From NCBI RefSeq assembly GCF_004010195.1, contig NC_057749.1, forward strand, positions 15,706,256 to 15,745,198: a stretch of 38,943 bases of DNA, given 5' to 3'. The stretch is from Chiloscyllium plagiosum (lineage: Eukaryota). Positions 1,339 to 37,110 of this stretch are shown piece by piece (positions within the stretch are counted from its first letter, which is position 1; each line of letters starts with the position of its first letter). A model generated the notes under the pieces. It was not told where the DNA came from, made no database searches, and worked only from the letters and a program-made list of their open reading frames with translations. The translations under genes were made by a program, and so were the position numbers.

Positions 1339-4300
1339 CTGAAGAGCAAAACAACAGACAAGAGGAATAGAAGGAGTTACTCTGTTGGATTTTAGCTCAG
1401 AAATGGATGGAGGTCCCTCCTCATCCTCTCTGACAGTGATAGTCATGGAGCTGTCTGTACCCAACACACTGCCTTTGTGCTAAAGCTTTCCAACAAACCT
1501 CAAGATGATCAAACGCAGTTATCCACTGGCCTCAGCAACGCTCTCCCTCTCTTGTGTCTGAGGCTCCAGTACCACGCCACAGACTCAAGCTTGGCATGCA
1601 GAGGAGCACTCCCAGTGCAGCGCTGAGGGACTGCTGCACCGTCACAGACCTCAGATCGTCTTGTTGCCCCCTCAGGTGGGCAACACAGATCTCTTGGTCT
1701 GTTCTGAAGCCCAGCTGTTCTCCGCAGTGAAGATTAGAGTTTTGCTGGAAAAGCACAGCAGGTCAGGCAGCATCCGAGGAGCAGGAGAATCAACGTTTCA
1801 GGCATGAGCCCTTCATCACATCTCCATGGCTCTCAGCCATGCTTGAATGTTGAAATAGGCTGGAGGCGCTGAATGGTCTCCTCCATTTCCTTTTGCCCGA
1901 AATGTCGATTTTCCTGCTCCTCAGATGCTGCCTAACCTGCTGTGCTTTTCCAGCACCACTCTAATCTTGACTCTAATCTCCAGCATTTGCAGGACCCACT
2001 TCTGCCCTGTTCTGCACAGTGCCCTTCTTTACCATGGTAGGAGTTTCCTTTTTCAACAGACACCAGCATGGGTGACTCAGTGGTTAGCACTGCTGCCTCA
2101 CAGCGCCAGGGACCCGGGTTCAATACCAGCCTCGGGTGACTGTCCGTGTGGAATTTGCACACTCTCCCCATGTCTGTGTGGGTTTCCTCAGGGTGCATTG
2201 GCCATGGGGAATTGCCCGTAGTGTCCAGGGATGTGCAGGCTGGGTGGGTTAGCCACAGTTAATGCGAGGTCACCGGGATATGGTGAGGGTCTGGGTCTGG
2301 GTCTGGGTGGGATGCTCTTTGGAGGGTCGGTGTAGACTTGATGGGCCAAATAGCCTCTTCCTGCACTCTGAGGGCTCTATGAGCTTTGAACCTGAGCACG
2401 ATCGATACAAGATCCATCACCAATGAATCCAATCGGGAATTCAGGACAGACAGGAGTGAATTGGGGCTGAAGTGAATCCAATTAAAGGGAAGGCCAGATA
2501 TACTCAGGAGGGAGAGGGGATTAAAAACTGGGTGCTGCTGATTGGGCAGGTTGAAGGGAGAAGGCTCAAAGGGCAGAATGGACTGTAAATACTGCTTCGC
2601 TGGGAACTTACCAATGGGAGTGCTGTGCCTGGGGCCTTGCTTCAACGAACCAATGAGAGGCGGGGTACCACCAACTATCGGCTGGATAACATCACCCTCT
2701 TTCGGTAATGTGAAGTGGAAAGGAATTTCTGGAGGGGGGCGGGGAAAGAGGGGAAAGACGAACATCCACAATTGGTTGTGTCAAAGGAGAACCACATCAC
2801 CCACAGCCTGTCACTGCCCCCAGCTCCAGCAGGTTTACCATCACTCCTCCTAATTGGAGGGGCCCTCGCCACACCCACACACGCACACGCCTACTTCTCC
2901 TTCCTTCTGGAAGTTTCCAACTGTCCCCTCCTGAAAGACTTCCGAAAGGCACGGCCTCAGGTTATCCCCTCATTCTGCCCCTTTCCCACAGGCAAGCGCA
3001 GCTATGGGTGGGGAACCCTCACTCGACCCAGAAGCACTGAATTCTTACAGACACGGCTGGGACAGGCACAGTGGGCTGAATGGCCTCCTTCTGCACCCTC
3101 TGGACAGCAGGATCAAATGGGAGCTACAGCTAGTGCACCAGGCCAGCTCAGCCAGCTTCAAACAGATCGACTGCTTCCCCACCACTGGCTCTGCAATCCC
3201 GTGCCAATCTCTAGCCGTTTCCCCATATCCCTATCACTATCCAAAACAAATCCAACCTCCGGATGCCTCAATCGAACCTGCCTCCACCACATTTCCACGC
3301 AGTGCTGTCCACACCCTACCCACTCACTTTGCTCACTGCACAGCTCATGCCAGTGTCTGGGTCCATGTGTGTTTGATTTGATTTGATTTATTATTGTCCC
3401 ATGTACCTAGGTACAGTGAAAAACCTTGCTTTGCATGCAGTACAAACAGATCATTCTCATAAAAAGTGCATTAGAGAAATAGGCCAGAGCGAGGAATACA
3501 ATGTTACAGCTGCAAGGAAGGTGCACAGAGTGAGATGCCCCTTCAAAAGACTAATAACAGCAGGGAAGAAGCTGCTCTTGAATCTGTTAGTACGTGTGTT
3601 TAAACTTTTGTATTTTCCACCTGATGACAGAAGAGGTTGCAAGAGATTATTACTGGGGTGGGTTGTGTGTGCATGTGTAAAAGAGAGAGAGACAGACGAT
3701 AGACAATAGACAATAGGTGCAGGAGTAGGCCATTCAGCCCTTCGAGCCTGCACCGCCATTCAATATAATCATGGCTGATCATTCAGTCTTTCAGTGTAAG
3801 GTAATCCTGCCATTCCAGGAATTGACCTCGTGAACCTACGCTGCACTCCCTCAATAGCCAGAATGTCTTTTCTCAAATTTGGAGACCAGAACTGCACACA
3901 GTACTCCAGGTGTGGTCTCACCAGTGCCCTGTACAGCTGCAGAAGAACCTCTTTGCATTGTTGCCATCTTGGATCCCCTTACTTGTCCAATTTAATGTGT
4001 CCCTGCAATTAGAGTCATAGAGATGTACAGTACAGAAACAGAACCATTGGTCCAACTGTTCCATGCCGACCAGATATCCTAACCTAATCTAGTGCCATTT
4101 AGCCCATATCCCTCTAAACCCTTCCCAATCATGTACCCACCCGGTTTAATTTAAATGTTGTAATTATACCGGCCTCCACCACTTCCTTTGGCAGTTCATT
4201 CCACACTCGCACCACCCTCTGCATGAAAAACTTGCAACTTAACTCCCTTTTAAATCTTTCCCCTCTCATTGTAAACCTCATAGAGATGTACAGCATGGAA

Positions 4301-7300
4301 ACTGACCCTTCGGTCCAACTCATCCATGCCAACCAGATATCCCAACCTGATCTAGTCCCATCTGCCAGCACCCAGCCCATAGCCCTCCAAACCCTTCCTA
4401 TTCACATACCCATCCAGATGCCTTTTAAATGTTTTAAACCTATGTCCTCTTGTTTTGGATTCCACTACCCTGGGGAAAAGACCTTGTCTATTTACCATAT
4501 CTGTGCCCCTCATGATTTTATAAACCTTTCAATTTTCAATTATAATCAATATTTGCCTCTATGTGAATTTTCAATAACAGCAACATTTTATCTTGCAGCT
4601 GAGCCAAAATTGATTCGTGCGGATTAAACATGGACTGCTTGGGTAGAATTGTGCACTGTAGTTAGTTTTGGTTGGAGATGTTTCCTTTCAAACAGATGCT
4701 ACAGCTATGGATTGAATGTTGTGTGAATTCTGAATCAAATCTATTGCTGAAGCCAGCTGGACTAGACTCCCTGGGAGTAATGTGGAAACGGAGAGTGAGT
4801 GTGTGCGTGTGTGTGTGGAGAGAGTGTGTGTGTGTGTGTGTGGGAAAGAGAGAGAGAGAGAGACAAGGAGGGGGAGAGCAAAGAGAGGTTTGTAACGATC
4901 CTATCCCCCCTTTCCCCTGCCTAGTCCGCATTCTCCAAGCACAGACTGCGTTTACCTCAGCTCCTCCCCAGCTTTCTCCACCCAGGGTGTTGCCCTCTGA
5001 CCCCCTCCATCCAGACTGTTTTACTTTCAGCTGCTCTTCCTTCCACAGAATGTTGGCATCCTCAACAATCCTGGTGTTTAAGACCCATCCGAAATAGGAA
5101 CAGCAGTAGGCCACTCAGCCCCTCGAACCTGCTCCACCATTCAACAGGATCATGGCCCACCCAACACTCTTCGCATCCATTTTCCTGCAATTTCCCCGTA
5201 ATCCACAATTCCCCAACTCGCCCTTTAACATACACAGGGACTCTGCCACCATAGCTCTCTGCAGCACAACCTTAACTGTTGCCCATCTCTAACTACCCTT
5301 GAACTGAGTGACTTGCTCAGCTATTTCAGAGTCAACCCCATTCGCGTGTTTGGAGTCATGTGTAGGCCAGGCTGGGTAAAGAGGGCAGATTTCCCTCCCT
5401 GAAGGGCATGAGTGAACCCTGCAGGTTTCTAACCAGCTCCAATGGTGAGATTCTAAGGCCTGAGGATTACTGACCCAGAAGCTGTGCCAACCTCATTCAC
5501 TAAAGTGTCAGCGCTCACGTGGCATCACTACAGCGTACCTACCACCAGAACTGTCCAGAAGGCTCTTGGCGGACTGCTCCGATTGTGGAACATCTGCCAA
5601 TCCCGTGCTCCGACTCTGCTCATCAGCTTCCACCTCCGGCTTCGGAGGTCCCGTTATCGGGCCAACGCCACGGGGTTTTGGGAATTCCGTGGCCTCAAGT
5701 TGGTGGTTCTGTCCCCCTGGGTAACTCCGGTCGTGTCTCGGGCTCTGGCCGCTCACGTTCTTCGGATCCATCAGGGAGGCCCGATCTTTAGGCTGCACCT
5801 TCGGTTCGGCCTGATCTCCAGCCTGCATCTTGATGACCAGCTTTGCCTGGAGATGCTTCCCGGGCTCAGCCGTACCGACGGCCGGTGAAGGCGGCAGCTT
5901 GCTGTCGATGGGGCGAGCGTCGCGGTCTCCTGGAGACGCTCTGTGGAGTTTCTCCGATATCAGCAGGACCCCCTCCAGCGGTTTCGGCCGCACCATCACA
6001 ACCAGCTCCCCGCCCTCCTGCCGACTCCCGCCAACGGCCCCAAGGCTCCGGGAAACAGTAGCTGCCCCCTCGCCCTCCCTGCTTCGGAAACGTCCAGAAT
6101 TTGTAACAGGAGGCTCCGGGGACTCAGAACATTCCGGTTCAGCGGAGACTGGGGCCCTCGCCTCACTGGGGCTCTCCTTTAATCCCAAGTCAGACGGAGC
6201 GTCCAGCTCCTGCTCCATCAGCTCCTCGTCCTCCTTCGGTCGTGATGTCTTGCAGAGTGTCTCAGATTGTGCAGCTTCGAGAAGGAGGGTCACTCCTTGG
6301 ACAGTCCCACTCCCGTCCTCTTTGACAGTTCGTCTCACCTCGTGCTCCTCCACTCTGGGAGCCCCGGGTCCACCCTCTGCCTCACACATCGACATCTCCT
6401 TCACCGCTGCTCCTTTCACCAGGAGGACGGGTTTGGGCGGGTCCCCGTGGGGAGAGCTGGGGCGAAGGAGGGGAGAGGGGGGCGACACTCTGCTCGATTG
6501 CTCAGATCTGCCGGGCGCCTCACCCGCAGCTAGCTCACCCGCACTGTGTTTGACATCCGGCCCCTCGGCAGCACTTTCCGGAGCATCTGTAACCGCGGCT
6601 CGATGGCTGGGCTCTTGGCTCTCTCCCGTCAATCGGAGGTGAACGCTGTGGTTTCCCTCAGACTCTCCTTTCACGGTGGGATCTTCACCAGCTCCTCCTT
6701 CGATCTGCGTGGCCTGGCTATCCTCCTCAGCCTGGGACTCACTGTCGTCCGTCTCCATCAGCTGCAGGCGCTCGCTGGCCGACAGTCTCAGTTCAAAAGG
6801 CTCCCCGGCCCCATCGTCGTGTTTCTTAAACCCCCCAAGGTCTGAGCTCCCAGTCCGTCCTCGGTCTTCCCTCTCCCCCATCGCCTCTCTGTCCTCGGGT
6901 ATGCTAGAGGGGTTTCCCTTCAGATCCACAGCAGACGTGACCCCTCCACCATGGCCACTGCCTTCTCTCAGGCTGGGTGTGGGCACGAAAATATCCTTCA
7001 AAAACAAACACACTGCAGTTACTTCGCCGACTAGAGAAACCCGTAACTTGGACAAAATACAGCAACAAAAACACAACCATTCCGACGGAGGGTCACTGGA
7101 TACGAAACGTTAACTCTACATCCCTCACACCCTCCTGTCTCAGAGACAATGCTGTCCCTTCTTCCTCCCTCCTGTTCCTTTATGTGGTACCTGTTCGTTA
7201 AACGAGATATTTTATCCAAGTTACACACTTAACAAAAAAAAAAGGACAAACTTCAGGCGCTGGAAATCAGAAAAAAAAACAGAACCATTCTGAAAGGGTC

Positions 7301-25300: not shown

Positions 25301-28300
25301 CTGCAGACAGAAAGAATTCCCCTCTTGAGCGGCACAAGATTCACACACAGAGCCCCCGAGACCATCGAGGACACCCCCACCCCTCCCCACAAAACAAAAT
25401 AAAAACACACAATCAGGAAACAGCAGCCTTGGCCAACAACAGGCCTCAGGACTGGACCGGCTCCCTCACGAACAGGCCGAAGCCTACCTTCAGCAGTGAC
25501 GGAGTTGGTTGTGGAATCTGCAAATTCGGGGTCCACCTCCTGCGAGCTTGGCTGGACACTGACAGGACTGCTGGGAGAACGGGAAATAAATCCATCACAT
25601 CATCGCTTCCATTCCGGGCTCTCCAAGCACTCTTCCTGGGGGGAGGGGGGGAGGGACAAGGGGACGGTGGTGGTAGAGGGGAGATATAGAGGATACAGCC
25701 CCCACTTTGTCAGATGGTCCTGCATTGCCTCTGACAAAACCAAGCCCCTCAGCCATCTCCCAGCTCCACCGACTGCTCGGGACCACCCATCAACCTCAAG
25801 GATTTTTCAAAAATGATTTGTTCTTTCACGGGATACGGGCGTCACTGGCTGGGCCACCATTTGTTGCTTGTCCCTAACTGCCCCTGTAGGTGGTGAGCTG
25901 CCTCCTCAGTCCACTGCTGTCCTTGGGGAGTAGTCAGCAGTGGAATAGCGAGGGAGGGAATTCCGGGATTTTGACCCAGCAACACCTAAGGAACGGCGAT
26001 AGATTTCCAAGTCAGGAGGGTGATTGGCTTGGAGGGGAACACGCAGAGGGGGTGATATCCCCGTGGACAAATGAAAAGTGCAAGTCTGAGTCACCAGGAG
26101 GCGGTAGTGGTTGGTGAGGAGGGTGGGAGACAGGGCTGGGTGAGCAGGAAATGAGACTATCTCAGTAACATGACAGTTACTGGGTGAGCAGAGCTTGGCC
26201 AGGTCTTTGTTGATGGACAAACTATTTATACCATTTACGTAGCGGCTTTCACAACCTCAGAATGTACCAAATCAAAACCAAACCTGTTGGAGAAACTCAG
26301 CAGATCTGGCAGTGACTGTGGGGAGTGGGGGGAGAGACACAGAGCGGGGAAGAAAGGGGGTGCTGAGAGTGGGGGAGAGGGGAAGGGAGGGGAGAAGAGA
26401 GAAAGAGAGGGAGGTGTAGAGGGGTGTGGGGGGAGAGTGAGGGTAGAGGGGGGCGGGGAAGAGGGGGGCGCACGCACTCACACACACACAGCCACTCACA
26501 CACACACAGCCACTCACACACACACAGCCACTCACCGGCTTTGCACCTTTGGCTCTGACAGACCCTCCATCGAAGGAATGGATGGTTCACCAGACTTCTG
26601 ACACGCCGTTGTTTCCATGGTGCCCAGAACTGAAAGAAAACAACAAACACAAACGTAGTGAAGGGGGGGGGGTGTGTGGCAGAGTTGAAAGGCTCATCAA
26701 TGGCGATGAGGGCTCCACCGTAACGGTTCAGCTCTGGAGAGTGGAACAATGTCATCGAGTCACAGAGTGTGGAAACAGACCCTTCAGACCAACCAGTCCA
26801 TTCCAACTGAACTAGTCCCACCTGCCTGTTCCCGGCACATATCCCTCCAAACCTTCCCTATCCATGGACTTATCCAAATGTCTATTAACTGTGCCCTCAT
26901 CCATCACTTCCTCAGGAAGTTCATTTCACACACAAACCACCCTCTGTGTAAATACTTTGCCCCTTCTGTTTTTTAAAATCGTTCACCTCTCACCTTAGAA
27001 AAAACATGCCCCCTAGCTCCCCACCCCTGGCAAACAGACGGTTGCCATTCACCCTATCCATGCCCCTCCCGTTTATATAAACCTCTATATGGTCGCCTCC
27101 GATGCTCCGCATTTCCCCATACTGTCCCCAGCCCTCAGGAAGGCAGCTTCACCTCCACCTTAGCAGTTGCCAGAGTGACTGTGGTTATTGGATGCACTGA
27201 TGTAGTCTTCATCCTTAGCAACTGGAACTGGATTTGATTGGTCAACACAGCTAACATGCCCTTCCACCATCAAATGGTGATTCACCGTCATACGACAGAA
27301 CTAGAGCCATAGAGCTGTACAGTTGCACCCTTCAGTCCAACATTAATCTAGTCCCATTTGCCAACACTTGGCCCATATCCCTTTAAACCCTTCCTATTCA
27401 TATACCCATCCAGATGCCTTTTAAATGCTGTAATTGTACCAGCCTCCACCACGTCCTCTGGCAGCTCATTCTATACACGCACTGCCCTCTGTGCGAAAAG
27501 GTAAATCTTTCCCTTCTCACCTTAAACCTATACCCTCTAGTTTCTGGCTCCCTTACCCTGGGAAAAGAGCTTCACTATTCACCCAATCCATGCCCCTCAT
27601 GATTTTATAAACTTCTATAAAACCAAGGCTAGGGTGAATAGGCAAGGAATTGCCTGACTAAAAGGTATTCGGAAAAGAGTAGGCACAGCCCACACAACAG
27701 GCCTGGTATCACCATCAGCCCCTACACACTGCAACCTATCATCATTACTTTCCCTTTATTCATTCAGGGATGTAGGTGTCGCTGGTGCTGTTGTCCGTAG
27801 CTAGTCGCCCGGCTCACTGGGACACTCCAGCAGACAGTTAAATGTCATCCACATCGCTGTGGGACTGGAGTCAGATACTGGCCAGACCAGGTAAGGACGG
27901 CAGATTTCCCTCCCTAAAGAGCATGTGTGAACCCAATGGGTTTTTACAACAACCCATGATACTCTCACAGTCACCAACCCTGAAGCTAGTTTTCAATTCC
28001 ACTGTATTTTCTAATCAACCCGTTGGGAGTTGTTATTAAAGACCTCTGGAGCAAGCGGGACTTGGACACAAGCCTCCTGGATCAGAGGAAGGGACGCTAC
28101 CACAGTGCCACAAGAGGCCTCAGTCCAACTGAGCATTAAATTCCACCAGCCACTGCAGCAGGATTTGAACACATGCCCCAGACCATTAGCCCTCGATGGT
28201 CAGGAGAAAGTGGGGACTGCAGAAGCTGGAGACCAGAGTCGAGAGTGTGGTGCTGGAAAAGCACAGCCTGACGAAAGGCTTTTGCCCAAAATGTCGATTC

Positions 28301-31300
28301 TCCTGCTCCTTGGATGCTGCCTGACCTGAAGTGCTTTTCCAGCACCACACCACACTCTTGGCCCTGGATAATTAGCCCAGTGGGGGAACCAGGTACTGAC
28401 TTGGAAACGCTGGCATTATACCCATGGGGTGGCCATTCAGCCCCTCCAGCCCATTCTTCGCCGACCTCTGTCCTAACTGGCCAGCTTGCTCCTGTAACCC
28501 CTAACTCAAATTTGACATTTTTAATTGAACACCCCCCCACCCCGGTCTCAGCAGCCCTTTGGGGTAGGGTGGGTGGGTCTTGGTTACAAGTTTCACTGCG
28601 TCACCCCCTCCTGCCGTCACTGCTGGAGGGTCACATCAGTGGGTCCCCAATCTGACCCCACGTCCCCCTCCTCACACAAGAAAGACCCCCTCTGCATCTC
28701 ACTGATCCTAAAAAGTCTGGTTCGATCATCTCTGTAACCTCTGCTGTTTCAAGGGTGACAAACCCCCACAATCTGTCCTAATTATTTAACCCCATAAGCT
28801 CCAGTTTGAAGCCAATTCAAGGTGAGACCCCTACATCCAAGTGCAGAGCCCTCAAGTTAAAGGCTAATGTTCCAATCAACTTTCTACATTACCTGTGCAC
28901 TTCCCCAACTTTTTAGCAATTTTTCTCCCTCTCCCACTTCCCCAACCAATAAACATAGCTCCAGATTGCTGACCCTTCACACCTCCTGGTACATCACCAT
29001 GAACAGAACACTGTGATCCATTGTGCTTCAGTCCAGGCTGCCTGCTCCCTCAATCAATCATACCCCCTGCCAGGAACCCCCCAAGGCAAATCAGAGACTA
29101 CCCTGCCTCACTACACTGCCTCACCATGGGAATGCTGGGTATTCCTTTTTCCAGACCTGCATTTATATTGTGCCTTTCCCAAGTTCAGGAAGTTCCAAAA
29201 CGCTGTACGAACAGTGGGTGGCTCAGTGGTTAGCACTGCTGCCTCACAGCACCGGAAACCCAGGTTCGATTCCAGCCTCGGGTGACTGACTGTGTGGTGT
29301 TTGCACGTTCTCCCCGTGTCTGCGTGGGTTTCCTCCGGTGCTCCGGTTTCCTCCCACAGTCCAAAGATGTGCAGGCTAGGTGAATTGGCCAGGCTAAATT
29401 GCCGGTAGTGTTAGGTGCATTAGTCAGAGGGAAATGGTTCCGGGTGGGTTACTCTTCAGAGGGTCGGTGTTGACTTGTTGGGCCAAAGGGCCTGTTTCCA
29501 CACTGTAAGGGAATCTAATCTAAAAAATCCTTTCTGAAGTGCAGCCATAATTGTCGAGAGCAGCCAGTTCCCACAAACAGTAACGTGACAATGACTAGGT
29601 AGTCTGTGTGAGCAAAGTTCATCGAACGATGAATATTGACCAATGAGAACACCCTTGTTTTTCATCAGAATAGTGGGGCTGTGAGATCTTTCACATCTAC
29701 CTTTCAGGGCACCAGTGGCTTCATTTCAACATCTCATCCAAAAGACATCACCGCCATCCCCCAAAATAGTGCTGCACTCCGTCATAGAACAATACAGCAC
29801 AGAACAGGCCCTTCGGCCCACGATGTTGTGCCGAACATTTGTCCTAGTTTAAGCACCCATCCATGTACCTATCCAATTGCCGCTTAAAGGTCGCCAATGA
29901 TTCTGACTCTGCCACTCCCACAGGCAGCGCATTCCATGCCCCCACCACTCTCTGGGTAAAGTAACCCATCGTTACTGCTTAATCTCAGCTTTGCTGAGAG
30001 TGGTCAATTGGGACTTGAACTTCCTGAGAGGGGGTTACTTGTTCAGCAATCTGATGAATGCACGCTCACAGATCTGTCCCCCGAGCGAGGCTGCTGGTGG
30101 CAATGGGACTTCGGTTCCACCGTCACTCACCTTTGTGATGCATCTCCTTCCGGCCAGAGATCTCTTTGTCGCCTCCTGCCGAGGTCTTGGCTGCCTGTGG
30201 GCCAGCAATCAGCTCCTGCAACATCCAACACACAGGGACACCTCAGAGTCTCAGCAGTCACACAAACCACACCACATCTAATAGAGTCACAGGCACAGTC
30301 ATAAAGCACAGAAGCGGACCCTTCAGTGCAACCAGTGCATGCTGACTACAATCCCAAACTAAGCTAGTCCCATCTGTTATGCACTTTGCCCATATCCCTC
30401 CAAACATTTTTTATTCATGTACTTGGGACAGCACGGTGGTTTAGTGGTTAGCACTGCTGCCTCAAAGTGCCAGGGACCTGTTTCAATTCCAGCCTCAGGC
30501 GATTATCCATGTGGAGTTTGTACATTCTCCCCGTGTCTGCGTGGGTTTCCTCCGGATGTACTTGGGAGAGCACGGTGGTTTAGTGGTTAGCACTGCTGCC
30601 TCACAGTGCCAGAGACCTGTTTTCGATTCCAGCCTCAGGCGATTATCCATGAGGAGTTTGTACATTCTCCCCGTGTCTGCGTGGGTTTCCTCCGGGTGCT
30701 CCAGTTTCCTCCCACAGTCCAAAGATGTGCAGGTCAGGTGAACTGGCCATGCTCAATTGCCCGTAGTGTTAGATGCAATAGTCAGGGGTAAATACATGGT
30801 AGGGGGAATGGGGCTGGGTGGGTTACTCTTTGGATGGTAAGTGTGGACTTGGTGGGCTGAAGGGCCTGTTTCCATACTGTAGGTATTCTAATCTTATCCA
30901 AATGCTTTTTAAATGTCGCAACTGAATGGACATCCACCACGCCCTCTGGAATTTCATTCCAAACACAAACCACTCTGTGTGTAAAAAGGTTGCCCCTTAT
31001 GTCCTTTTTTTAATCTCTCTCCTCTCACCTTAAATATATGCCCTCTAGTCTTGAAATCCCTAGTTTGAAGAGTTTGGGAGATTTCTAGATGTTTTCTCTT
31101 TCCAAAATAAAAAACAATGATTAATGAAAAGATATCAGAACTTCTATTTAAAACGAGGCTCCTTGGAAATTGTGTGACTTGTTATAATTGCTGTTCTTGG
31201 TTGCCTGGACGAATCTTGGTTGTTTCACTTCATTGGTTTACCGTGGGTCTGTTGGCACAGTGTCTGCAGAGTCTCTGTTCTGGAGTTAGCTGGGGGAAAG

Positions 31301-32658
31301 CCTGCTAAGAACAAGCTGCCCAGCTCACTTCAGGTGAATTCAGGTTGAAACCTGAGTGTTGTCCTGGAAGAATGAGAGAAAATTTCTCACGCTTGTACTT
31401 CCTGAGCAAGCTGTGTCTGCCAAGACACCAGACCACCATGTATGATTAGTGACTTGACACATTTGTAAGACAGCAAGATTGACAGACTGGAGAACATTTT
31501 ACTCTTTTAAACCAGAAGTAAAGCTCCCCATAAACTGTCCCTATCAAACACTCCCAGGACAGCGACAGCACTGAGTTAGATTAAGAGTAAAGCTCCTTCT
31601 ACACCATCCATGTCAAAGACTCCCAGACTGAGACAGCACAGGTTAGATATAGGGTGAAGCTCCCTCTACTCTTTCAAAATAAAAGTAAATATAAAGTAAA
31701 GCTCTCTTGACACTATTCCCATCAACCACTTCCAGGAGAGGGACAGCAAGCGTCAGGTACAGAGTAAAGCTCCCTCTACCTGTCCCTCTGAGCAAACAAT
31801 CCCAGGACAGGGACAGCACAAGGTTAGATACAGAAAAAAAGCCATCTTTACGCTGTCCCCCATAAAATACTCCCAGGACAGGGACAGCACAGGGTTAGAA
31901 ATGGACTAAAGTTCCCTCCACACTTCCCGGACAATGGAAAGCACAGGGTCAGATACAGGAGTAAAGCTTCCTCTACACTGTCCCCCATCAAACACTCACA
32001 GCACAGGGTTGGATACAGAGTAAGGAGAAAGTGAGGTCTGCAGATGCTGGAGATCAAAGTTGAAACTTTATTGCTGGAACAGCACAGCAGGTCAGGCAGC
32101 ATCCAGGGAACAGGAGATTCGACGTTTCGGGCACAGGCCCTTCTTCAGGATACAGAGTAAAGCTCCCTCAACACTGTCCCCATGAAACGCTGCCAGGACA
32201 GGGACAGCACGGGGTTAGATACAGAGTAAAGCTCCCTCTACACTGTCTCCATCAAACACTCCCAGCACAGGGGTAGATACAGAGTAAAGCTTCCTCTACA
32301 TTGTCCGCCATCAAACACTCCCAGGACAGGGACACATTGGGGTTAGATACAGACTAAAGCCTCCTAAGCACATTCAATGCTTTACCATTTTGCCGTTGAG
32401 AATACATAGTCTTGGTCAGAAACTTTGTCGCCGATCCTGCAACCTCATCGAATGGTCAGAGAGTACTCACCAACACTGGGCTGTGTGTGCGGGGCTGCAG
32501 GTTCGACAGGCACCGGGCTTGGAGATTCCGGTAGCTCTGCTCAGGGTCATCCTCCGACAGCACACTCTCAGCCTGGGAGTCCTCTACAATCAGGCACGGG
32601 GTGTCTTGCTGCGAGAGCTCAGGTTCCAGCTGGGTGCCGTTCGGGTCCATGTGATGAA
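1129..32658 (-). CDS. TP53BP1: TP53-binding protein 1 (53BP1), partial gene model: join(32471..32658, 30131..30215, 26536..26629, 25488..25570, 23401..23544, 22806..22875, 18186..18358, 16053..16167, 12823..12917, 9699..9913, 5543..6995, 2612..2728, 1129..1338); continues 3' past the last exon found
   Basis: Colinear 53BP1 blocks: MDPNGTQLEPELSQQDTPCLIVEDSQ, LGLLELSESQ, LHLSGQQSLVQESLS, PIIVPNSPT, PMDTS, PQASTP, SH/DIFVPTPSL, EIPFHFTLPKEGD..TPPLIG..RHSTPI, KLCLRMQL. All introns are GT-AG and the phases chain 0,1,2,1,1,2,1,2,1,0,1,1,1 with no in-frame stop. Confidence 0.97.
1731..2002. mobile_element. Family A short element as an inverted pair (1731-1817 and 1891-2002), probably Penelope-like-derived, with degenerate hammerhead cores
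   Basis: Arms gctggaaaagcacagcaggtcaggcagcatc and its reverse complement; same family at 10663, 11702, 28202 and 32023. Confidence 0.75.
2071..2381 (+). mobile_element. HE1-type SINE
   Basis: A/B boxes, V-domain and LINE-derived tail. Confidence 0.9.
2612..2728 (-). CDS. TP53BP1: 53BP1 exon 13-equivalent, EIPFHFTLPKEGDVIQPIVGGTPPLIGSLKQGPRHSTPI (117 nt, phase 1->1)
   Basis: cccctccAG acceptor, TTG|GTAAGT donor; highly similar to human ETPFHFTLPKEGDIIPPLTGATPPLIGHLKLEPKRHSTPI. Confidence 0.96.
3374..3660 (-). mobile_element. Rex1/Babar-like non-LTR retrotransposon 3' fragment
   Basis: Translation HPSNNLLQPLLSSGGKYKSLNTRTNRFKSSFFPAVISLL is the typical C-terminus of this group; tail ends in (aaatc)n. 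Confidence 0.72.
3696..3958 (-). mobile_element. CR1-clade LINE 3' fragment, internally deleted
   Basis: Tail tgatcagccatgat..gggctgaatggcctactcctgc; coding remnant LYRALVRPHLEYCVQFWSP. Confidence 0.8.
4010..4527 (-). mobile_element. HER1/CR1 LINE 3' fragment with a second short HER1 tail nested at 4279-4434
   Basis: Two gtacatctctatg tails; the inner copy is flanked by taaacct direct repeats (4272-4278, 4435-4441). Confidence 0.85.
4793..4864. repeat. Compound (TG)n/(GA)n microsatellite
   Basis: Direct inspection. Confidence 0.9.
5543..6995 (-). CDS. TP53BP1: 53BP1 large exon 12-equivalent, DIFVPTPSL...SAKSLLDSSG (1453 nt, phase 0->1); acidic and disordered
   Basis: Core of the 522-aa ORF 5508..7076; tgtttgtttttgaAG acceptor before DIFVPTPSL; GTG|GTAGGT donor is in phase with the next exon. 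Confidence 0.93.
7112..8089. repeat. About 110-bp diverged inverted repeat (7112-7223 versus 7978-8089)
   Basis: gagacaatgctgtccc..ccctcctgttccttt..gatattttatcc.agtta recurs as its reverse complement. Confidence 0.9.
7438..7977 (+). mobile_element. HER1/CR1 LINE, 5'-truncated 3' end
   Basis: RKDVVKLERVQKRFTRILPGLE..EKLNRLGLFSLE..RGNFFT.RVVRAWN; 3' UTR ends in ctctatgact. Confidence 0.93.
8685..9140 (+). mobile_element. Degenerate CR1-clade LINE 3' fragment
   Basis: MRRAF..RVSLWNSLP remnant and gggctgaatagcctcctcctgc tail. Confidence 0.75.
9262..9495 (+). mobile_element. HE1-type SINE, internally deleted
   Basis: cagtggttagcac..ggttcgattccagcctcgg head and LINE-like tail. Confidence 0.8.
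9699..9913 (-). CDS. TP53BP1: 53BP1 exon 11-equivalent, AEEPMDTS...PQASTPVSESIPAF...PVPSLPDLSH (215 nt, phase 1->0)
   Basis: ttctgttccAG acceptor (CAGCAG), CAT|GTAAGT donor; matches human PMDTS..PQASTPISQSTPVF..PIPSQPQFSH. Confidence 0.94.
10072..10348. repeat. 69-bp minisatellite, about 4 copies
   Basis: tgtatctaacctcatgctgtccctg..gggagtgtttgat..ggacagtgtagagagagctttactc repeats with period 69; reverse complement of the array at 31505-32365. Confidence 0.95.
10663..10786 (-). mobile_element. Family A short element, single arm, with decayed hammerhead core
   Basis: aggagaaagtgaggactgcagatgctggag...gggcataagcccttcag. Confidence 0.8.
10834..11465 (-). mobile_element. HER1/CR1 LINE 3' fragment, diverged
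   Basis: Reverse-strand tail plus LYRTLV.PLLEYCVRFWSP remnant. Confidence 0.85.
11702..11866. mobile_element. Family A element with partial inverted arm; hammerhead-like core at 11790-11826 (-)
   Basis: Minus strand reads gattc CTGATGA a cggc ttat gccc GAAA tgtc gatt. Confidence 0.8.
12823..12917 (-). CDS. TP53BP1: 53BP1 exon 10-equivalent, SSSNVIDPSQESFGPTPIIVPNSPTKQDPDL (95 nt, phase 2->1); absent from the ORF track
   Basis: ttcttttcacAG acceptor, TAG|GTAACG donor; matches human NSSDLVAPSPDAFRSTPFIVPSSPTEQ. Confidence 0.94.
13422..13669. mobile_element. Family B inverted-repeat element (arms about 13457-13511 and 13614-13668), probably Penelope-like-derived
   Basis: tggatgtaggtttgctcgctgagctgg..gtttcgtcacc mirrored by ggtgatgaaac..ccagctcagtgagcaaacctacatcca; related copy at 36378. 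Confidence 0.8.
13494..13535 (-). ncRNA. Candidate minimal type-I hammerhead ribozyme (family B)
   Basis: Minus strand reads ctcg CUGAAGA u GUUACC uaguau GGUGAC GAAA CGUC^ugga: complete core and 6-bp stem II, weak stem I. Confidence 0.6.
14485..15637 (+). mobile_element. CR1-clade LINE fragment: decayed reverse transcriptase plus 3' end
   Basis: ORF 14497-15135: VDVYMGFSKAFVKVP..WIRNWL..RRQRVVV..SGVSQGSVLGPLLF.IYINDL..KFANDTK; the catalytic FADD is mutated to FAND and stops follow. Confidence 0.95.
15637..15911 (-). mobile_element. HE1-type SINE
   Basis: Reverse-strand head cacggtggctccatggttagc and V-domain. Confidence 0.85.
16053..16167 (-). CDS. TP53BP1: 53BP1 exon 9-equivalent, GPTAA...LQVLHLSGQQSLVQESLSE (115 nt, phase 1->2)
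   Basis: Long pyrimidine tract then ctctcAG; GGA|GTAAGT donor; matches human LHLLQLSGQRSLVQDSLS. Confidence 0.94.
16170..16278. repeat. GA-rich simple repeat forming a roughly 100-nt polypyrimidine tract before exon 9 on the minus strand
   Basis: Almost pure purine on the plus strand, abutting the acceptor AG at 16169-16168. Confidence 0.85.
16938..17350 (-). mobile_element. HER1/CR1 LINE 3' end
   Basis: SLERRRLRGDLIEVYKIMRG.DRINRQSLFPGVGESRTRGHRF; close to the reverse complement of the 20761-21513 copy. Confidence 0.93.
17428..17703 (-). mobile_element. HE1-type SINE, deleted
   Basis: B box ggttcgattcc on the reverse strand and LINE-derived tail. Confidence 0.8.
18186..18358 (-). CDS. TP53BP1: 53BP1 exon 8-equivalent, SEVTSS...LMPSGLRI...ILSQEEAVEPTLS (173 nt, phase 2->1)
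   Basis: gttgcAG acceptor, CAG|GTAGGT donor; LMPSGLRI matches human LMESGLQI and LSQEE matches STQED. Confidence 0.9.
19097..19316. repeat. About 33-bp minisatellite (cagtgcggcactccctcagcactgaccctccga), 6-7 copies, amplified inside an older SINE-like repeat
   Basis: Direct periodicity; single-copy relatives of the unit at about 18050, 34195 and 1620 (reverse). Confidence 0.92.
19939..20182. mobile_element. Family C inverted-repeat element with hammerhead-like core at 20057-20094 (+)
   Basis: Arms aaaacagaaattgct..actcagcaggtctggcagca and tgccagacctgctgag..agcaatttctgtttt; related pieces at 7076-7120, 7282-7408 and 26270-26312. Confidence 0.78.
20761..21513 (+). mobile_element. HER1/CR1 LINE, 5'-truncated, inserted into an older degenerate CR1 fragment (about 20600-21700)
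   Basis: ORFs 20815-21174 and 21238-21429 are CR1 ORF2 C-terminus; tail (ctctatga)n; the older CR1 remnant resumes after 21513. Confidence 0.93.
22806..22875 (-). CDS. TP53BP1: 53BP1 exon 7-equivalent, DTNAGLTVSDKPLTGTGSSHLPER (70 nt, phase 1->2)
   Basis: gattccttacAG acceptor, GAG|GTATGT donor; the only candidate I found giving the required 1->2 phase; ends in a split Arg as in human PPAR|SED. Confidence 0.8.
23401..23544 (-). CDS. TP53BP1: 53BP1 exon 6-equivalent, GLSQAGLGLLELSESQ...EEPEP (144 nt, phase 1->1)
   Basis: ttttttccccccAG acceptor, CCG|GTAGGA donor; matches human SQLGFGVLELSQSQ. Confidence 0.92.
24018..24291 (+). mobile_element. HER1/CR1 3' fragment
   Basis: RVWNELPQKVVDAGTVTTFKRHLDKY plus tail. 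Confidence 0.85.
24797..25143 (+). mobile_element. HER1/CR1 3' fragment
   Basis: gaggtttatgaaatcatgagggg..GTVTTFKRHL plus tail. Confidence 0.85.
25488..25570 (-). CDS. TP53BP1: 53BP1 exon 5-equivalent, SPVSVQPSSQEVDPEFADSTTNSVTAE (83 nt, phase 2->1)
   Basis: ttctcccAG acceptor (CAGCAG), AAG|GTAGGC donor; TTNSVTAE resembles human TTHSLGAE at the exon end. Confidence 0.88.
26474..26535 (-). repeat. 18-bp tandem repeat (GTGAGTGGCTGTGTGTGT) starting at the exon 4 donor
   Basis: actcac on the plus strand at 26476, 26494, 26512 and 26530. Confidence 0.92.
26536..26629 (-). CDS. TP53BP1: 53BP1 exon 4-equivalent, VLGTMETTACQKSGEPSIPSMEGLSEPKVQSR (94 nt, phase 1->2)
   Basis: Strong polypyrimidine tract ttgttttctttcAG, CCG|GTGAGT donor; phases bridge exons 3 and 5. 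Confidence 0.82.
26755..27620 (-). mobile_element. Two HER1/CR1 3' fragments (about 26755-27105 and 27302-27620)
   Basis: Reverse-strand tails and 3' coding remnants. Confidence 0.8.
28202..28358. mobile_element. Family A element folded as a hairpin; decayed hammerhead core on the plus strand at about 28268-28296
   Basis: gtggtgctggaaaagcac..CTGACGA aaggcttttgccc aaaa tgtc..gtgcttttccagcaccac; GAAA is mutated to AAAA. Confidence 0.78.
29217..29522 (+). mobile_element. HE1-type SINE, near full length
   Basis: A/B boxes, V-domain and tail gaatctaatctaa. Confidence 0.92.
30131..30215 (-). CDS. TP53BP1: 53BP1 exon 3-equivalent, ELIAGPQAAKTSAGGDKEISGRKEMHHK (85 nt, phase 0->1)
   Basis: tgttgcAG acceptor, AAG|GTGAGT donor, open frame and correct phases; low sequence conservation. 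Confidence 0.82.
30282..31062. mobile_element. HER1 3' fragment (-) interrupted by an HE1 SINE (+, about 30425-30895) whose head is tandemly duplicated
   Basis: Host sequence ttcatgtactt|atccaaatg is split by the SINE; duplicated units at 30417-30555 and 30556-30695. Confidence 0.9.
31505..32365. repeat. Degenerate array of the roughly 69-bp minisatellite (about 10 units), interrupted by a family A element
   Basis: Recurrent agagtaaagctccctctacactgtccccatcaaacactcccaggacagggacagcac..gttagatac. Confidence 0.92.
32023..32150 (-). mobile_element. Family A short element with 13-bp flanking duplication and complete hammerhead core (32117-32150)
   Basis: ggatacagagtaa at 32011-32023 and 32148-32160; minus strand reads CUGAAGA a GGGC cugu GCCC GAAA CGUC^gaau. 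Confidence 0.85.
32471..32658 (-). CDS. TP53BP1: 53BP1 exon 2-equivalent; ATG at 32650, MDPNGTQLEP...THSPVL (60 aa)
   Basis: Acceptor ttcaatctAG lies 8 nt upstream of the ATG; donor GTGAGT at 32470-32465; strong match to the 53BP1 N-terminus including the S13 and S25 SQ sites. Confidence 0.96.
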
Positions 32659-35715: not shown

Positions 35716-36221
35716 TAGAGTCATACAGCAATGGAAAGAGACCCTTCGGTCCAACCAGTCCATGCTGACCCTAATCCCAAACTAAACTAGTCCCACCTGC
35801 CTGCTCCTGGCCCATATCCTTCCAACCCTTTCCTCTTCATGTACTTATCCAAATGTCTCTTAAACGTTGTAACTGTACCCATTCTCACCACTTCCTCTGG
35901 AAGCTCATTCCACACACAAACCATCCTCTTGTAAAAAAAAAAATTTCCCCTCATGTCCTTTTCAAATCTTTCCCATCTCACCTTAAAAACCCTAGACTTG
36001 AAATCCCCCACCCTGGGGAAAAGACACCTGCCATTCACCTTATCTATACCCCTTCATGTTTTTATAAACCTCAATAAGGTCACTCCTCAACCTCCTACAC
36101 TCCAGTGAAAAAGGTCCTAGCCTATCCAGCCTCTCCCTATATCACAAATCTTCCATTCCTGGCTACATCCGGGTAAATCCTTTTTGAACCCTCTCTAGTT
36201 TAATAAAATCCTTCCTCTAAC
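35716..36221 (-). mobile_element. HER1/CR1 3' fragment
   Basis: ORF 35787-36038: WNELPEEVV..TFKRHLDKYM.RKGLEGYGPGAGRWD. Confidence 0.9.
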
Positions 36222-36377
36222 ACATGGGAGTAGATTGTGTTCAGGGAGAAGTAAGAGGCTTTTGTCAAATCTCTCTATCAGTGGGTGTTTGCCTCACCTT
36301 GTGTCAGAGCCTGGTATAGTCTCATTAGTAAAGCTTGGTAATTGGGATTAGTCAATAACACCATTACCAATTAGTGA

Positions 36378-36465
36378 GTTTTGAGAAGATCTGTAGCTCA
36401 GGTTGAGGTTCTGGATGTAGGTTTGCTCGCTGAGCTGGAAGGTTCATGAACCTACATCCAGAACC
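36378..36465. mobile_element. Internally deleted family B element (hairpin; hammerhead lost)
   Basis: Nearly identical to 13422-13491, followed directly by the inverted gaacctacatccagaacc. Confidence 0.8.
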
Positions 36466-36721: not shown

Positions 36722-37110
36722 TCAGACTCCCACAGCATGGAAACAGACCCTTCAGTCAGCTCCCTTTTATATCTTTCCCCTCTCACCTTAAACCTCTATT
36801 TTTGGACTGCCCTCCCCAGGGGAAAAAACCCTCAGCTCTTCACCTTAACTCTGCTTCTCACGATTTTATAAACCTCTATAAAGGTCACCCCACAGACTCT
36901 GAGGAAAAATGTCCCAGCATCTCTCTATAACTCAGATCCTCCAGACCTGGTAACATCCTTGTAAATCTTTTCTGTACCCTGTCCAATTTAATAATATCCT
37001 TCCTTTAGCAGGGCGACCAGAACTGTACACAGTACTCCAGCAGTGGCCTCAATGTTCTGCACAGCTACAATATGACATCCCAACTCCTGTAATTAATGTT
37101 CTGCCAATGA
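36722..37110 (-). mobile_element. HER1/CR1 3' fragment, deleted
   Basis: Reverse-strand RPLLEYCVQFWSP remnant and tail. Confidence 0.8.

What the first reader, a model, noticed from the sequence alone, without database searches (positions are those of the whole stretch)
1731..32150. Three independent short mobile-element families share a minimal hammerhead ribozyme core with compensating stems
Seen: family A (composite of the 11790 and 32117 copies) is AUUC-CUGAnGA-a-GGGC/GCCC-GAAA-CGUC-GAAU. Family B (13494) is CUGAAGA-u-GUUACC/GGUGAC-GAAA-CGUC. Family C (20057) is AGUU-CUGAGGA-AGG/CCU-GAAA-CAUU-AACU, and the 7082 copy retains CGUU. The stems differ completely between families while the core and pairing are kept. 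Known: Penelope-like retroelement termini carry minimal type-I hammerheads whose stem III is reduced to a short palindrome (ACGU) and which cleave as dimers; non-coding retrozymes have similar motifs. Inference: about 10 ORF-less copies in 39 kb point to very abundant non-autonomous, ribozyme-bearing PLE derivatives in this shark. I cannot tell whether these specific families have been described.
Basis: partly seen in the sequence, partly recalled or inferred. Interest (0 to 1): 0.8.

Follow-up and report, generated by a model that had tools for sequence, protein, structure and literature searches.

The report
Penelope retroelement tails carrying minimal hammerheads
The short repeats are the end pieces of Penelope-like jumping genes, each carrying the small dimer-type hammerhead ribozyme motif already known from such elements; what stands out is that this shark genome holds them in six-figure numbers.

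Summary
The window has 16 fragments of three repeat families. Three keep an intact minimal hammerhead core (32121-32148 -, 13498-13531 -, 20061-20090 +). The rest are decayed, mostly at CpG, or 5'-truncated.

In the 3.56 Gb genome, CUGANGA-N9-30-GAAACGUH occurs 169,715 times, against 2,607 for the reversed control. Of these, 88,357 are the exact family A motif.

The motif has the published traits of Penelope-like element (PLE) minimal hammerheads: one unpaired base after A9, no stem III, an ACGU palindrome, a short stem I. Stems I and II covary between families. No Rfam hammerhead model matches.

The families are not independent. A and C share a homologous tail. A and B lie on the same strand downstream of GIY-YIG endonuclease ORFs, in the order EN, 3'UTR, hammerhead, about 125 nt, ORF start.

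Copies show PLE insertion signatures: two 3' ends about 35 nt apart, 9-15 bp target duplications (three ending in ATT), head-to-head inverted pairs and tandem arrays.

Many copies start exactly at the hammerhead's 5' edge. This leaves open a self-propagating mini-element or a transcript start there. Cleavage was not tested.

Verdict: new members of a known kind, in unusual numbers.

The parts
32024..32148 (-). Family A (subfamily with CUGU loop) mini-copy. The intact hammerhead core is 32121-32148, with the predicted cleavage site between 32121 and 32120. A 97-nt tail follows, ending at 32024. The copy is flanked by a 13-bp target-site duplication (about 32011-32023 and 32148-32160) and is inserted in a ~68-bp satellite.
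10649..10785 (-). Family A copy with a full tail. The core is lost: there is a deletion in the CUGANGA box, and both CpGs have decayed (GAAACGUC to AAAACAUC).
11697..11830 (-). Family A copy. CUGAUGA is intact, stem II has one mismatch (CGGC/GCCC), and CGUC has become UGUC. An inverted piece of its own tail precedes it (11830-11861 on +).
1739..1818 (-). Family A copy with C3 mutated (GUGAUGA) and GUU in place of GUC. It is the left half of a head-to-head pair.
1890..2010 (+). Family A copy 5'-truncated inside loop II. It is the right half of the head-to-head pair with 1739-1818.
28197..28349 (.). Family A foldback. An inverted tail (28197-28267, -) abuts a degenerate hammerhead with a short tail (28267-28349, +).
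13404..13591 (-). Family B copy. The intact hammerhead is 13498-13531 (CUGAAGA-U-GUUACC/GGUGAC-GAAA-CGUC). Downstream is a tail of about 95 nt with an AGCUCAG/CUGAGCU stem around an AC-rich loop. Upstream is PLE 3'UTR-like sequence.
13613..13675 (+). Inverted, 5'-truncated family B partner. It starts in the 3' arm of stem II and lies head to head with 13404-13591.
36355..36447 (-). Family B tail-only fragment with a short foldback and no hammerhead core. It lies outside the span given in the finding.
20051..20194 (+). Family C copy. The hammerhead is 20061-20090, with both core boxes intact, 4 of 5 stem II pairs, and CAUU instead of CGUU (CpG decay). The tail is homologous to the family A tail.
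19936..20018 (-). Inverted family C tail, running up to GAAACGUU. It is the head-to-head partner of 20051-20194.
7275..7437 (+). Family C copy with a degenerate core (CUGAAAG..., GAAAAGUU) and a full tail.
7089..7117 (+). Family C fragment. Stem II and GAAACGUU are kept; the CUGANGA box is mutated.
26265..26325 (-). Family C tail-only fragment.

Best explanation
The repeats are the 3'-terminal modules (pseudo-LTR plus 'tail') of several related lineages of endonuclease-bearing Penelope-like retroelements (PLEs).

Shown:
- Each module carries the PLE-type minimal type I hammerhead. It has stem I of 3-4 bp, CUGANGA, one unpaired base, stem II of 4-7 bp, GAAA, and then ACGU-H with no stem III.
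- In the parent element the order on one strand is RT ... GIY-YIG endonuclease, stop, 3'UTR (about 70-300 nt), hammerhead, about 125 nt of leader, and the ATG of the next ORF.
- The copy anatomy is as follows. The 3' ends fall about 60 or about 97 nt after the GUC. The 5' ends fall in the ORF or 3'UTR, or right at the hammerhead's 5' edge. An inverted copy often lies head to head with the first.

Inferred by analogy with the lizard element PAc:
- New copies are made by target-primed reverse transcription. It starts at one of two internal sites in a stem-loop of the leader and runs towards the 5' end of the RNA.
- Priming on both nicked DNA strands produces the head-to-head pairs.
- The RNA motif cuts after GUC or GUU only when two copies pair through their ACGU palindromes, probably helped by the element's protein. 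This would trim tandem or read-through transcripts just upstream of the leader.

Most copies are dead: the cores decay at their two CpGs.
For: Abundance against controls:
- Family A exact motif: 88,357 against 0 in the reversed control.
- Family B: 1,009 against 0.
- Family C: 1,244 against 0.
- Any CUGANGA-N9-30-GAAACGUH: 169,715 against 2,607.
- Non-A types (gap 14-30): 35,521 against 2,086.

Match to the published descriptor (PMC4209133, parts 1-2 read):
- An extra base between A9 and 10.1.
- A closing G-C.
- A palindromic 15.2-16.2.
- A short helix I.
All are seen in the motif instances.

Covariation:
- Stem I: 75% of cells paired against 46% in shuffles (0 of 500 reach it). Slid registers give 18-34%. 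All 4 pairs change on both sides (42 rows).
- A+C stem II: 92.6% paired. One pair is C-G in 15 rows and U-A in 15 rows (36 rows).
- Family B stem I switches between CUCA/UGA and CCCA/UGG among subfamilies.

Link to PLEs:
- Pfam GIY-YIG rings at C7:46413394-46413501 with 29.9 bits (cut-off 22.6). It is one of 47 matches among 150 scored of 14,403 candidates.
- That element's 3'UTR matches DNA just upstream of family A hammerheads on the same strand, in L021, L023, L025 and L016.
- In L016 the ORF end ...QGINVDFNSF lies about 70 nt before the hammerhead.
- EN-like ORFs lie upstream on the same strand of family B hammerheads in L040, L043, L048, L050 and L056.
- In L092 the tail runs on into the PLE ORF start.
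- A 486-aa homologue, 73% identical, has weak RVT_1 followed by GIY-YIG.

Insertion signatures matching PMC8557442 and PMC11167929 (passages read):
- 10 of 54 copies have flanking direct repeats of 9 nt or more, against 2.3% of mismatched controls. Three end in ATT.
- Tails measure 59-63 or 94-101 nt.
- 34 of 97 hammerhead-bearing hits have an inverted partner directly upstream, and 26 have PLE 3'UTR.
- Tandem arrays exist in L094 (224 nt x 2.6) and L044 (387 nt x 2).
- Read and contig pile-ups show the same unit edges and opposite-strand joints.
Against: - No cleavage was measured.
- No Rfam hammerhead model matches. This holds at the gathering threshold and at E up to 10 over the whole window, and on 81-91 nt stretches around the two best motifs.
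- Stem I of the commonest family A subfamilies has a U-U mismatch.
- Predicted monomer folds form stem II but not an active hammerhead. They are not more stable than shuffles for 5 of 6 units.
- In raw poly(A) single-cell RNA reads, no place stands out where molecules begin or end, so no ends appear at the GUC site. 93% of the laid reads run on into unrelated flanks, on both strands, which looks like passive co-transcription. That library is poorly suited to the question.
- The RT region of the two elements I fetched reads N, so RT was not seen in this genome's own DNA.
- The covariation rests on few independent lineages, and the seed copies were picked with patterns that fixed parts of stem II.
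- Published PLE minimal hammerheads cleave poorly in vitro (PMC4209133). PAc hammerhead mutants still insert in vitro (PMC11167929). The motif's role in the life cycle is therefore open even for known members.
Confidence: 0.85

Rival explanations
1. The short copies are a self-propagating, non-autonomous lineage. This could be SINE-like mini-elements or retrozyme-like tandem units of about 90-225 nt that begin at the hammerhead and borrow the PLE enzyme. They would not be mere truncated or by-product copies of autonomous PLEs.
For: - The 5' boundary is sharp. In 8 of 10 copies with a target duplication, the 5' junction lies within -4 to +2 of the CUGA box.
- In the family A-iii listing, roughly 15 of 100 rows have unrelated flanks that abut the same ATTC (my by-eye count).
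- In head-to-head pairs, both halves end near the same point.
- Tandem arrays of 224-nt and 387-nt units each carry a hammerhead.
- Non-LTR retrozymes have been proposed to be non-autonomous PLE derivatives, with one cartilaginous fish sampled (bioRxiv 10.64898/2026.07.22.740005, passages read).
Against: - Every subfamily examined also has copies attached to PLE 3'UTR. My first sample of the A-iii subfamily showed no copy attached to a PLE 3'UTR, but about half of the 100 listed rows share one upstream sequence. L093 shows that sequence to be PLE 3'UTR.
- No subfamily-specific diagnostic changes were shown for the mini-copies.
- No promoter was shown.
- The boundary could come from second-strand priming: a target end ...ATT-3' pairing with the element's own ATT. 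Three of the 10 duplications end in ATT.
Confidence: 0.3
2. The conserved CUGANGA...GAAACGU module is not kept for self-cleavage. It would be a protein-binding or reverse-transcription signal of the PLE RNA that happens to retain hammerhead shape, so the copies are ribozyme-like but catalytically idle.
For: - The module sits at a fixed distance of about 60-100 nt from the reverse-transcription start sites, as in PAc.
- PAc hammerhead mutants still insert in vitro, and no RNA-seq reads end at the PAc cut site (PMC11167929).
- Some PLE clades thrive without hammerheads (PMC8557442).
- No read ends appear at the GUC site here.
Against: - The bases kept between diverged lineages are the catalytic ones, and the stems change by compensation. 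That is the signature of selection on the fold.
- PAc RNA is cleaved in a C3/G8-dependent way when its protein is present (PMC11167929).
Confidence: 0.15
3. The repeats are termini of DNA transposons or MITEs. The head-to-head pairs would be terminal inverted repeats.
For: Many copies form inverted pairs with the tails facing outward, which can look like TIRs.
Against: - The same sequence continues on one strand into a GIY-YIG ORF and its 3'UTR.
- Copies are truncated from one side only.
- Single copies have 9-15 bp duplications of variable length.
- The centre of the inverted pairs varies from pair to pair.
Confidence: 0.02

Closest known systems
Minimal hammerheads (min-HHR) in the pseudo-LTRs of metazoan Penelope-like elements (Cervera and De la Pena 2014, PMC4209133; dimer cleavage also reported by Lunse, Weinberg and Breaker 2017, which I could not read here)
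   Same: - The core boxes.
- One unpaired base between A9 and 10.1.
- A G-C closing stem II.
- No helix III, with an ACGU palindrome.
- A short helix I.
- Many consensus families per genome with compensatory changes.
- Most copies are single motifs from truncated elements, and some are pairs on opposite strands.
   Different: - Numbers. The paper gives about 4,000 for coelacanth and about 9,000 for Xenopus. Here 169,715 motifs keep both boxes and the palindrome in one genome.
- Stem II of family A is only 4 bp, where the paper describes 7-8 bp for Schistosoma.
- No cartilaginous fish is named in the parts I read.
Poseidon PAc of Anolis carolinensis (PMC11167929): hammerhead at the pLTR/ORF junction with internal start of reverse transcription
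   Same: - The hammerhead lies roughly 60-100 nt upstream of two reverse-transcription start sites 30-40 nt apart (the 'tail').
- The starts lie in or beside a stem-loop, AC-rich in family B.
- Target cuts occur at ATT.
- Products are made on both DNA strands.
   Different: - In PAc the ORF starts inside the hammerhead. Here the ATG lies about 125 nt downstream of the cut site.
- Nothing was tested biochemically here.
General PLE insertion architecture (Craig et al. 2021, PMC8557442)
   Same: - Heavy 5' truncation.
- Partial tandems forming pLTRs.
- An inverted 5'-truncated copy at the 5' end.
- An optional 30-40 bp tail.
- The CxxC linker before GIY-YIG (CHRRNCKTC in L092 and L022; CNCKKCKTC in L012).
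   Different: That paper cites copy numbers in the tens of thousands. By rough extrapolation, the count here is in the hundreds of thousands.
Non-LTR retrozymes (PMC7229834, search listing and abstract only; bioRxiv 10.64898/2026.07.22.740005, passages read)
   Same: Tandem arrays of short units, each with a type I hammerhead of weak helix III (L094, L044). A PLE origin has been proposed for them.
   Different: - Most copies here are dispersed singles or inverted pairs, not arrays.
- The motif lacks helix III altogether.
- Circular RNA was not looked for.

Membership tests
PLE minimal hammerhead (min-HHR) | Conserved core boxes CUGANGA and GAAA, followed by U-H at the cleavage site | tested here: met
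   Window copies at 32121-32148, 13498-13531 and 20061-20090. Genome-wide 169,715 against 2,607 in the control.
PLE minimal hammerhead (min-HHR) | One unpaired nucleotide between A9 and 10.1 | tested here: met
   A in families A and C, U in family B. The best pairing needs the 1-nt bulge in 62 of the 68 distinct motifs listed, my count.
PLE minimal hammerhead (min-HHR) | Helix III absent, with positions 15.1-16.1 forming the ACGU palindrome for pairing in a dimer | tested here: met
   GAAACGUC in A and B, GAAACGUU in C. Decayed copies read ACAU or AUGU. Dimer formation itself was not tested.
PLE minimal hammerhead (min-HHR) | Stems I and II supported by compensatory change | tested here: met
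   and the subfamily switches. Caveat: few independent lineages, and the seed patterns fixed parts of stem II.
PLE minimal hammerhead (min-HHR) | Located in the pLTR of an element with RT and GIY-YIG | tested here: met
   for EN, the UTRs and the ORF start. RT was seen only in a public homologue, because the RT stretch of the fetched elements reads N.
PLE minimal hammerhead (min-HHR) | Self-cleavage, as dimers | not testable with these tools
   No biochemical test was possible. The RNA reads show no ends at the site, in a library unsuited to show them.
Rfam hammerhead families (Hammerhead_1 and relatives) | A score against the covariance model | tested here: not met
   No hammerhead match at the gathering threshold or at E up to 10. 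My understanding, not checked here, is that the Rfam hammerhead models include stem III.
EN+ Penelope-like elements | [quoted passage not shown] | tested here: inconclusive
   - GIY-YIG is over the Pfam cut-off in the genome search.
- The linker is read.
- Homologue P0001 scores below the curated cut-offs for both domains: RVT_1 16.4 bits and GIY-YIG 21.7 bits.
- RT in this genome's own copies was not visible.
EN+ Penelope-like elements | Insertion signatures: 5' truncation, partial tandems, an inverted 5' copy, and an optional 30-40 bp tail | tested here: met
Non-LTR retrozymes | Head-to-tail arrays of short non-coding units, each with a hammerhead, giving circular RNA | tested here: inconclusive
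   Arrays exist elsewhere in the genome (L094 and L044) but not in the window. The L094 unit contains the first 21 codons of the PLE ORF. Circular RNA was not tested.

The most novel reading that the evidence does not exclude
A large share of the copies are discrete mini-elements of about 90-135 bp. They begin within a few bases of the hammerhead's 5' edge and end at one of the two reverse-transcription start sites.

This would mean that an abundant template RNA starts exactly at the hammerhead. In families A and C the base at that edge sits in an initiator-like YYANWYY context (family B fits only partly). The context is read by eye and the motif is recalled, not tested.

The PLE leader, made of hammerhead plus stem-loop, would then be a self-sufficient unit that is transcribed and reverse-transcribed. 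It would have multiplied to several hundred thousand copies: a hammerhead-headed SINE-like element bridging PLEs and retrozymes.
Probability: 0.3. Interest if true: 0.55.

Novelty: new member of a known kind. Interest (0 to 1): 0.35.

Why it matters
It extends the PLE minimal hammerhead to cartilaginous fish. I found no paper combining hammerhead ribozymes, sharks and SINEs or Penelope. The one preprint that sampled a cartilaginous fish looked at tandem retrozymes only.

It also shows a genome where one ribozyme motif occurs about 170,000 times intact. That is more than ten times the per-genome counts given in the 2014 paper. Such a genome is a natural library of hammerhead variants with their decay series.

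The sharp 5' edge of the mini-copies gives a concrete, testable handle on two open questions. Where do PLE template RNAs begin? What, if anything, does the hammerhead do in the life cycle?

For genome annotation, these units and their inverted pairs are likely to be mislabelled as unknown SINEs or MITEs.

Tried and rejected
- Rfam scans. The whole window at the gathering threshold and at E up to 10, plus two short stretches, gave no hammerhead family.
- Pfam on 20 ORFs next to hammerheads in random genome copies. No PLE domain was found; one unrelated RT_RNaseH hit appeared. Most copies therefore lack an adjacent ORF.
- Pfam on two visible EN fragments gave nothing useful.
- Attempts to see a full-length element. 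The RT parts of L091 and L092 read N. I stopped there and used a public protein homologue instead.
- Sequencing runs. No RNA holder is listed for the stretch. In the lay, raw RNA run X20 laid nothing. X19 showed no place where molecules begin or end. Expression and cleavage remain open.
- A single column-wise structure for all three families. MAFFT does not align family B's longer stem II with those of A and C. Stem II was therefore counted on A+C only, and family B was judged from anchored pairing.
- The idea that the CUGU-loop subfamily (A-iii) exists only as mini-copies. None in my first sample was attached to a PLE 3'UTR, but rejected the idea: about half of 100 listed rows share an upstream sequence, shown by L093 to be PLE 3'UTR.
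- A first automated search for target duplications missed most cases, because the 3' ends from nhmmer were imprecise. It was redone with wider windows.
- A dimer fold was not computed. The intermolecular ACGU helix inside two stem I closures is not a nested structure, so cofold programs cannot represent it.
- The match at 38085-38120 has no stem II and is taken as chance.
- Lunse et al. 2017 (PMC5785218) is not held. What I say of it is recalled.
Full report
WHAT IS IN THE WINDOW. The pattern CTGANGA-N3-30-GAAAC occurs four times: 13501-13531 (-), 20061-20087 (+), 32124-32148 (-) and 38085-38120 (-). The expectation is 0.98, and 1 of 100 shuffles reached four, so the window alone proves little. 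The last match has no stem II.

I read the cited places. I then searched the window with HMMs built from genome copies and read each hit on its motif strand. There are 16 fragments of three families. Their coordinates are listed under parts; the short inverted piece at 11830-11861 and the two halves of the 28197-28349 foldback are each listed within another row.

Only three fragments keep both core boxes:
- A at 32121-32148: AUC-CUGAAGA-A-GGGC-CUGU-GCCC-GAAA-CGUC-GAAUC.
- B at 13498-13531: CUGAAGA-U-GUUACC-UAGUAU-GGUGAC-GAAA-CGUC.
- C at 20061-20090, where CGUU has decayed to CAUU.

The other fragments are hit mainly at the two CpGs of GCCCGAAACGUC, are truncated inside the motif, or are tail-only. 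tblastn with the element's endonuclease and linker peptides finds nothing in the window.

THE GENOME SETTLES THAT THE MOTIF IS NOT CHANCE. Counts on both strands, against the reversed-pattern control:
- Family A exact motif: 88,357 against 0.
- Family B: 1,009 against 0.
- Family C: 1,244 against 0.
- Any CUGANGA-N9-30-GAAACGUH: 169,715 against 2,607.
- The same with a gap of 14-30, which excludes family A: 35,521 against 2,086.

I also counted copies that were not search seeds, in the 313,674 non-N bases I held (the window plus 92 loci). There were 77 family A, 23 family B and 30 family C fragments. Of the 77 family A fragments, 47 cover the hammerhead and 16 keep the strict motif. Scaling this up suggests several hundred thousand to about a million fragments genome-wide. 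That is a rough extrapolation, because the loci were chosen around seeds and come from the first two contigs of the assembly (C1 and C2).

IT IS THE PLE-TYPE MINIMAL HAMMERHEAD. Cervera and De la Pena 2014 (PMC4209133, parts 1 and 2 of 4 read) define the min-HHR and list traits that emerged beyond their search descriptor:
- many consensus families per genome with compensatory changes;
- a conserved G10.1-C11.1 pair;
- palindromic 15.2-16.2.

All four are seen here. The extra base is A in families A and C and U in family B. Stem II is GGGC/GCCC in A, GUUACC/GGUGAC in B, and GGGUC/GACCU in C. Stem III is absent, and A15.1-C-G-U16.1 forms ACGU.

The unbiased listings, in which only the core boxes were fixed, show further recurrent stem II types (pairing read by eye):
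- GUUACC/GGUAAU
- GUCACC/GGUGAC
- GUCACC/GGGGAC, with one internal mismatch
- GGGUC/GACCC
- GAGUC/GACUC
- AAGUU/GACUU

Pair counts support both stems.
- Stem I across all three families (42 rows): 75% of cells are paired, against 46% in shuffles (0 of 500 reach it) and 18-34% in slid registers. All four pairs change on both sides.
- Stem II in A plus C (36 rows): 92.6% of cells are paired. One pair is C-G in 15 rows, U-A in 15 rows and U-G in 4 rows.
- Family B stem I switches between CUCA/UGA and CCCA/UGG among subfamilies.

Two caveats apply. There are few independent lineages, and my seed patterns fixed stem II in A and B and part of it in C.

No Rfam hammerhead family matches at any threshold tried. 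That fits a motif without stem III, but it means membership in the Rfam families is not met.

THE FAMILIES ARE NOT INDEPENDENT, AND THEY ARE PLE ENDS. The tails of A and C are homologous. They share GAUGCUGCC(U/A)GACCUGCUG ... UUCCAGCA ... CCAGCAUC, and the family C HMM hits family A copies.

A Pfam GIY-YIG search of the genome gave 14,403 first-look candidates. Of the 150 scored, 47 matched. One match, at 29.9 bits against a cut-off of 22.6, lies in L092. There I read the following:
- a Cys-rich linker (CHRRNCKTC);
- a GIY-YIG region with in-frame stops, so this is a dead copy;
- an ending ...GINVDFNSF.

Its 3'UTR matches the DNA just upstream of family A hammerheads on the same strand in L021, L023, L025 and L016. 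In L016 the ORF end lies only about 70 nt before the motif.

More diverged EN-like ORFs, 37-45% identical, lie upstream on the same strand of family B hammerheads in L040, L043, L048, L050 and L056. Several family C copies have similar C-rich 3'UTR-like sequence upstream.

In L092 a family A tail runs on, 24 nt later, into an ORF start, MPALKKF.... L094 shows the same junction for another subfamily. The order on one strand is therefore EN, stop, 3'UTR, hammerhead, about 125 nt of leader, ATG. That is the pLTR of a tandem PLE.

The RT part of the two elements I fetched reads N. A public 486-aa protein, 73% identical to the visible C-terminal part, has a weak RVT_1 match followed by GIY-YIG.

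HOW THE COPIES WERE MADE. The anatomy fits what is published for PLEs.

Craig et al. 2021 (PMC8557442, passages read) describe:
- heavy 5' truncation;
- partial tandems;
- an inverted 5'-truncated copy at the 5' end;
- an optional 30-40 bp tail.

Work on the Anolis element PAc (PMC11167929, passages read) shows:
- endonuclease cuts at 5'-ATT-3';
- extension of both DNA strands;
- reverse transcription starting inside the RNA at two sites in an AC-rich stem-loop, with the tail being the stretch between the two sites.

Here the copies show matching features.
- The 3' ends fall 59-63 or 94-101 nt after the GUC.
- 10 of 54 copies have flanking direct repeats of 9 nt or more, against 2.3% of mismatched controls. 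Eight have 10 nt or more, against 0.5%. Three end in ATT.
- Of 97 hammerhead-bearing hits, 34 have an inverted partner directly upstream, 26 have PLE 3'UTR, and 34 have something else. About a dozen of the 97 are family C cross-hits, and both halves of a pair are counted.
- Tandem arrays exist: L094 has 2.6 units of 224 nt at 98% identity, and L044 has two units of 387 nt inside a larger inverted structure.
- Family B's tail folds into an AGCUCAG/CUGAGCU stem around an AC-rich loop. Family A's tail folds into a GGAUGCUG/CAGCAUCU stem. The short-tail ends fall inside that loop.

Reads and contigs of public runs laid on one family A copy give the same picture:
- depth of 300-700 on the unit, against 20-70 on the 3'UTR upstream of it;
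- loose ends at the two 3' ends and at the 5' edge;
- opposite-strand joints at the 5' edge.

WHAT IS NOT EXPLAINED BY PLAIN TRUNCATION. The 5' ends are not spread evenly.
- In 8 of the 10 copies with a target duplication, the 5' junction lies within -4 to +2 of the CUGA box.
- In a listing of 100 copies of the CUGU-loop subfamily, roughly 15 have mutually unrelated flanks that all abut the same ATTC (by eye).
- In head-to-head pairs, both halves mostly end between loop II and ATTC.

Three explanations are open:
- An abundant template RNA begins there. The edge sits in a YYANWYY-like context in families A and C (family B fits only partly). I read this by eye and recall the motif, so it is untested.
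- Second-strand priming from a target end ...ATT-3' on the element's own ATT.
- A self-propagating mini-element.

My early impression that one subfamily exists only as mini-copies was wrong.

FUNCTION. Cleavage was not tested. Several results count against activity:
- Predicted monomer folds form stem II but no active hammerhead.
- Family A's usual stem I has a U-U mismatch.
- In raw poly(A) single-cell RNA reads, 93% of the 1,861 laid reads continue into unrelated flanks, on both strands. No place stands out where molecules begin or end.

This is weak evidence against active processing, because such a library would hardly show it.

The literature itself leaves the role open. The min-HHRs cleave poorly in vitro even as dimers (PMC4209133). 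PAc RNA is cleaved in a core-dependent way only with its protein, and hammerhead mutants still insert (PMC11167929). Some PLE clades lack the motif altogether (PMC8557442).

COMPARISON AND NOVELTY. This is a known kind. I found no paper that links hammerhead ribozymes with sharks and SINEs or Penelope. Search one search returned one unrelated review. Search one search returned one review that uses 'shark' only for the shape of the motif. A whale shark genome paper lists Penelope among its repeats. A 2026 preprint sampled one cartilaginous fish for tandem retrozymes; its supplements were not seen and may name families.

The per-genome counts in the 2014 paper are about 4,000 and 9,000. I recall that Lunse et al. 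2017 reported on the order of 150,000 variants across all data, but that paper is not held here.

Earlier notes of this scan record the same kind in other genomes and none in this one.

The count here, and the clean mini-copy boundary, are the points worth a specialist's look.

Noticed in passing
window 31497-32375: A satellite-like array of units of roughly 55-70 bp (core ...GGTTAGATACAGAGTAAAGCTCCCTCTACACTGTC...). The family A mini-copy at 32024-32148 inserted into it, which makes its 13-bp target duplication easy to see.
   Followed up: partly
window 19077-19335 and 10074-10346: Two tandem arrays. One has a 33-bp unit (TCCCTCAGCACTGACCCTCCGACAGTGCGGCAC-like, at least 6 copies). The other has a 69-bp unit (3 overlapping 135-nt copies at 91-96% identity).
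   Followed up: no
window 2069-2380, 9254-9497, 29215-29517, 30481-30891, 37626-37938: A different repeat family in 5 copies. It has a tRNA-like B-box stretch (GTTCGATTCCAGCC...) and looks like a tRNA-derived SINE. It is unrelated to the hammerhead families.
   Followed up: no
window 4020-4552, 10842-11217, 16948-17319, 22108-22300, 26757-27109, 27337-27639, 30296-30424, 35719-36070: The most frequent repeat of the window (families D1, D3, D6-D8, D13, D14 and D20). It is a dispersed element of about 400-500 bp in about 8-9 copies, which I did not classify.
   Followed up: no
window 36906-37012 (-) and 7460-7568 (+): Weak U6 snRNA-like matches, at 23.3 and 16.9 bits against a gathering score of 44. 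They are probably U6-derived pseudogenes or chance.
   Followed up: no
L014:1250-1800 laid on public runs: Contigs of a run labelled as a different organism (X1, organism A) hold the family A unit at 90-99% likeness and at high summed depth. The family is therefore shared with at least one other species label.
   Followed up: no
L021:1600-1700: A family A copy is inserted in a sequence that reads in frame like a LINE-type reverse transcriptase (...LIEFFEKVTKQVDEDKAIDLVYMDF...). I read this by eye and ran no search; it looks like flank, not part of the PLE.
   Followed up: no
L094:1-801 (G000:C1:26521900-26522700): In the 224-nt tandem units, the first 21 codons of the PLE ORF run straight into the next hammerhead, whose UGA closes the frame. 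Further on, a longer N-terminal ORF piece is again followed directly by a hammerhead start. Units can therefore end at several points inside the ORF.
   Followed up: partly
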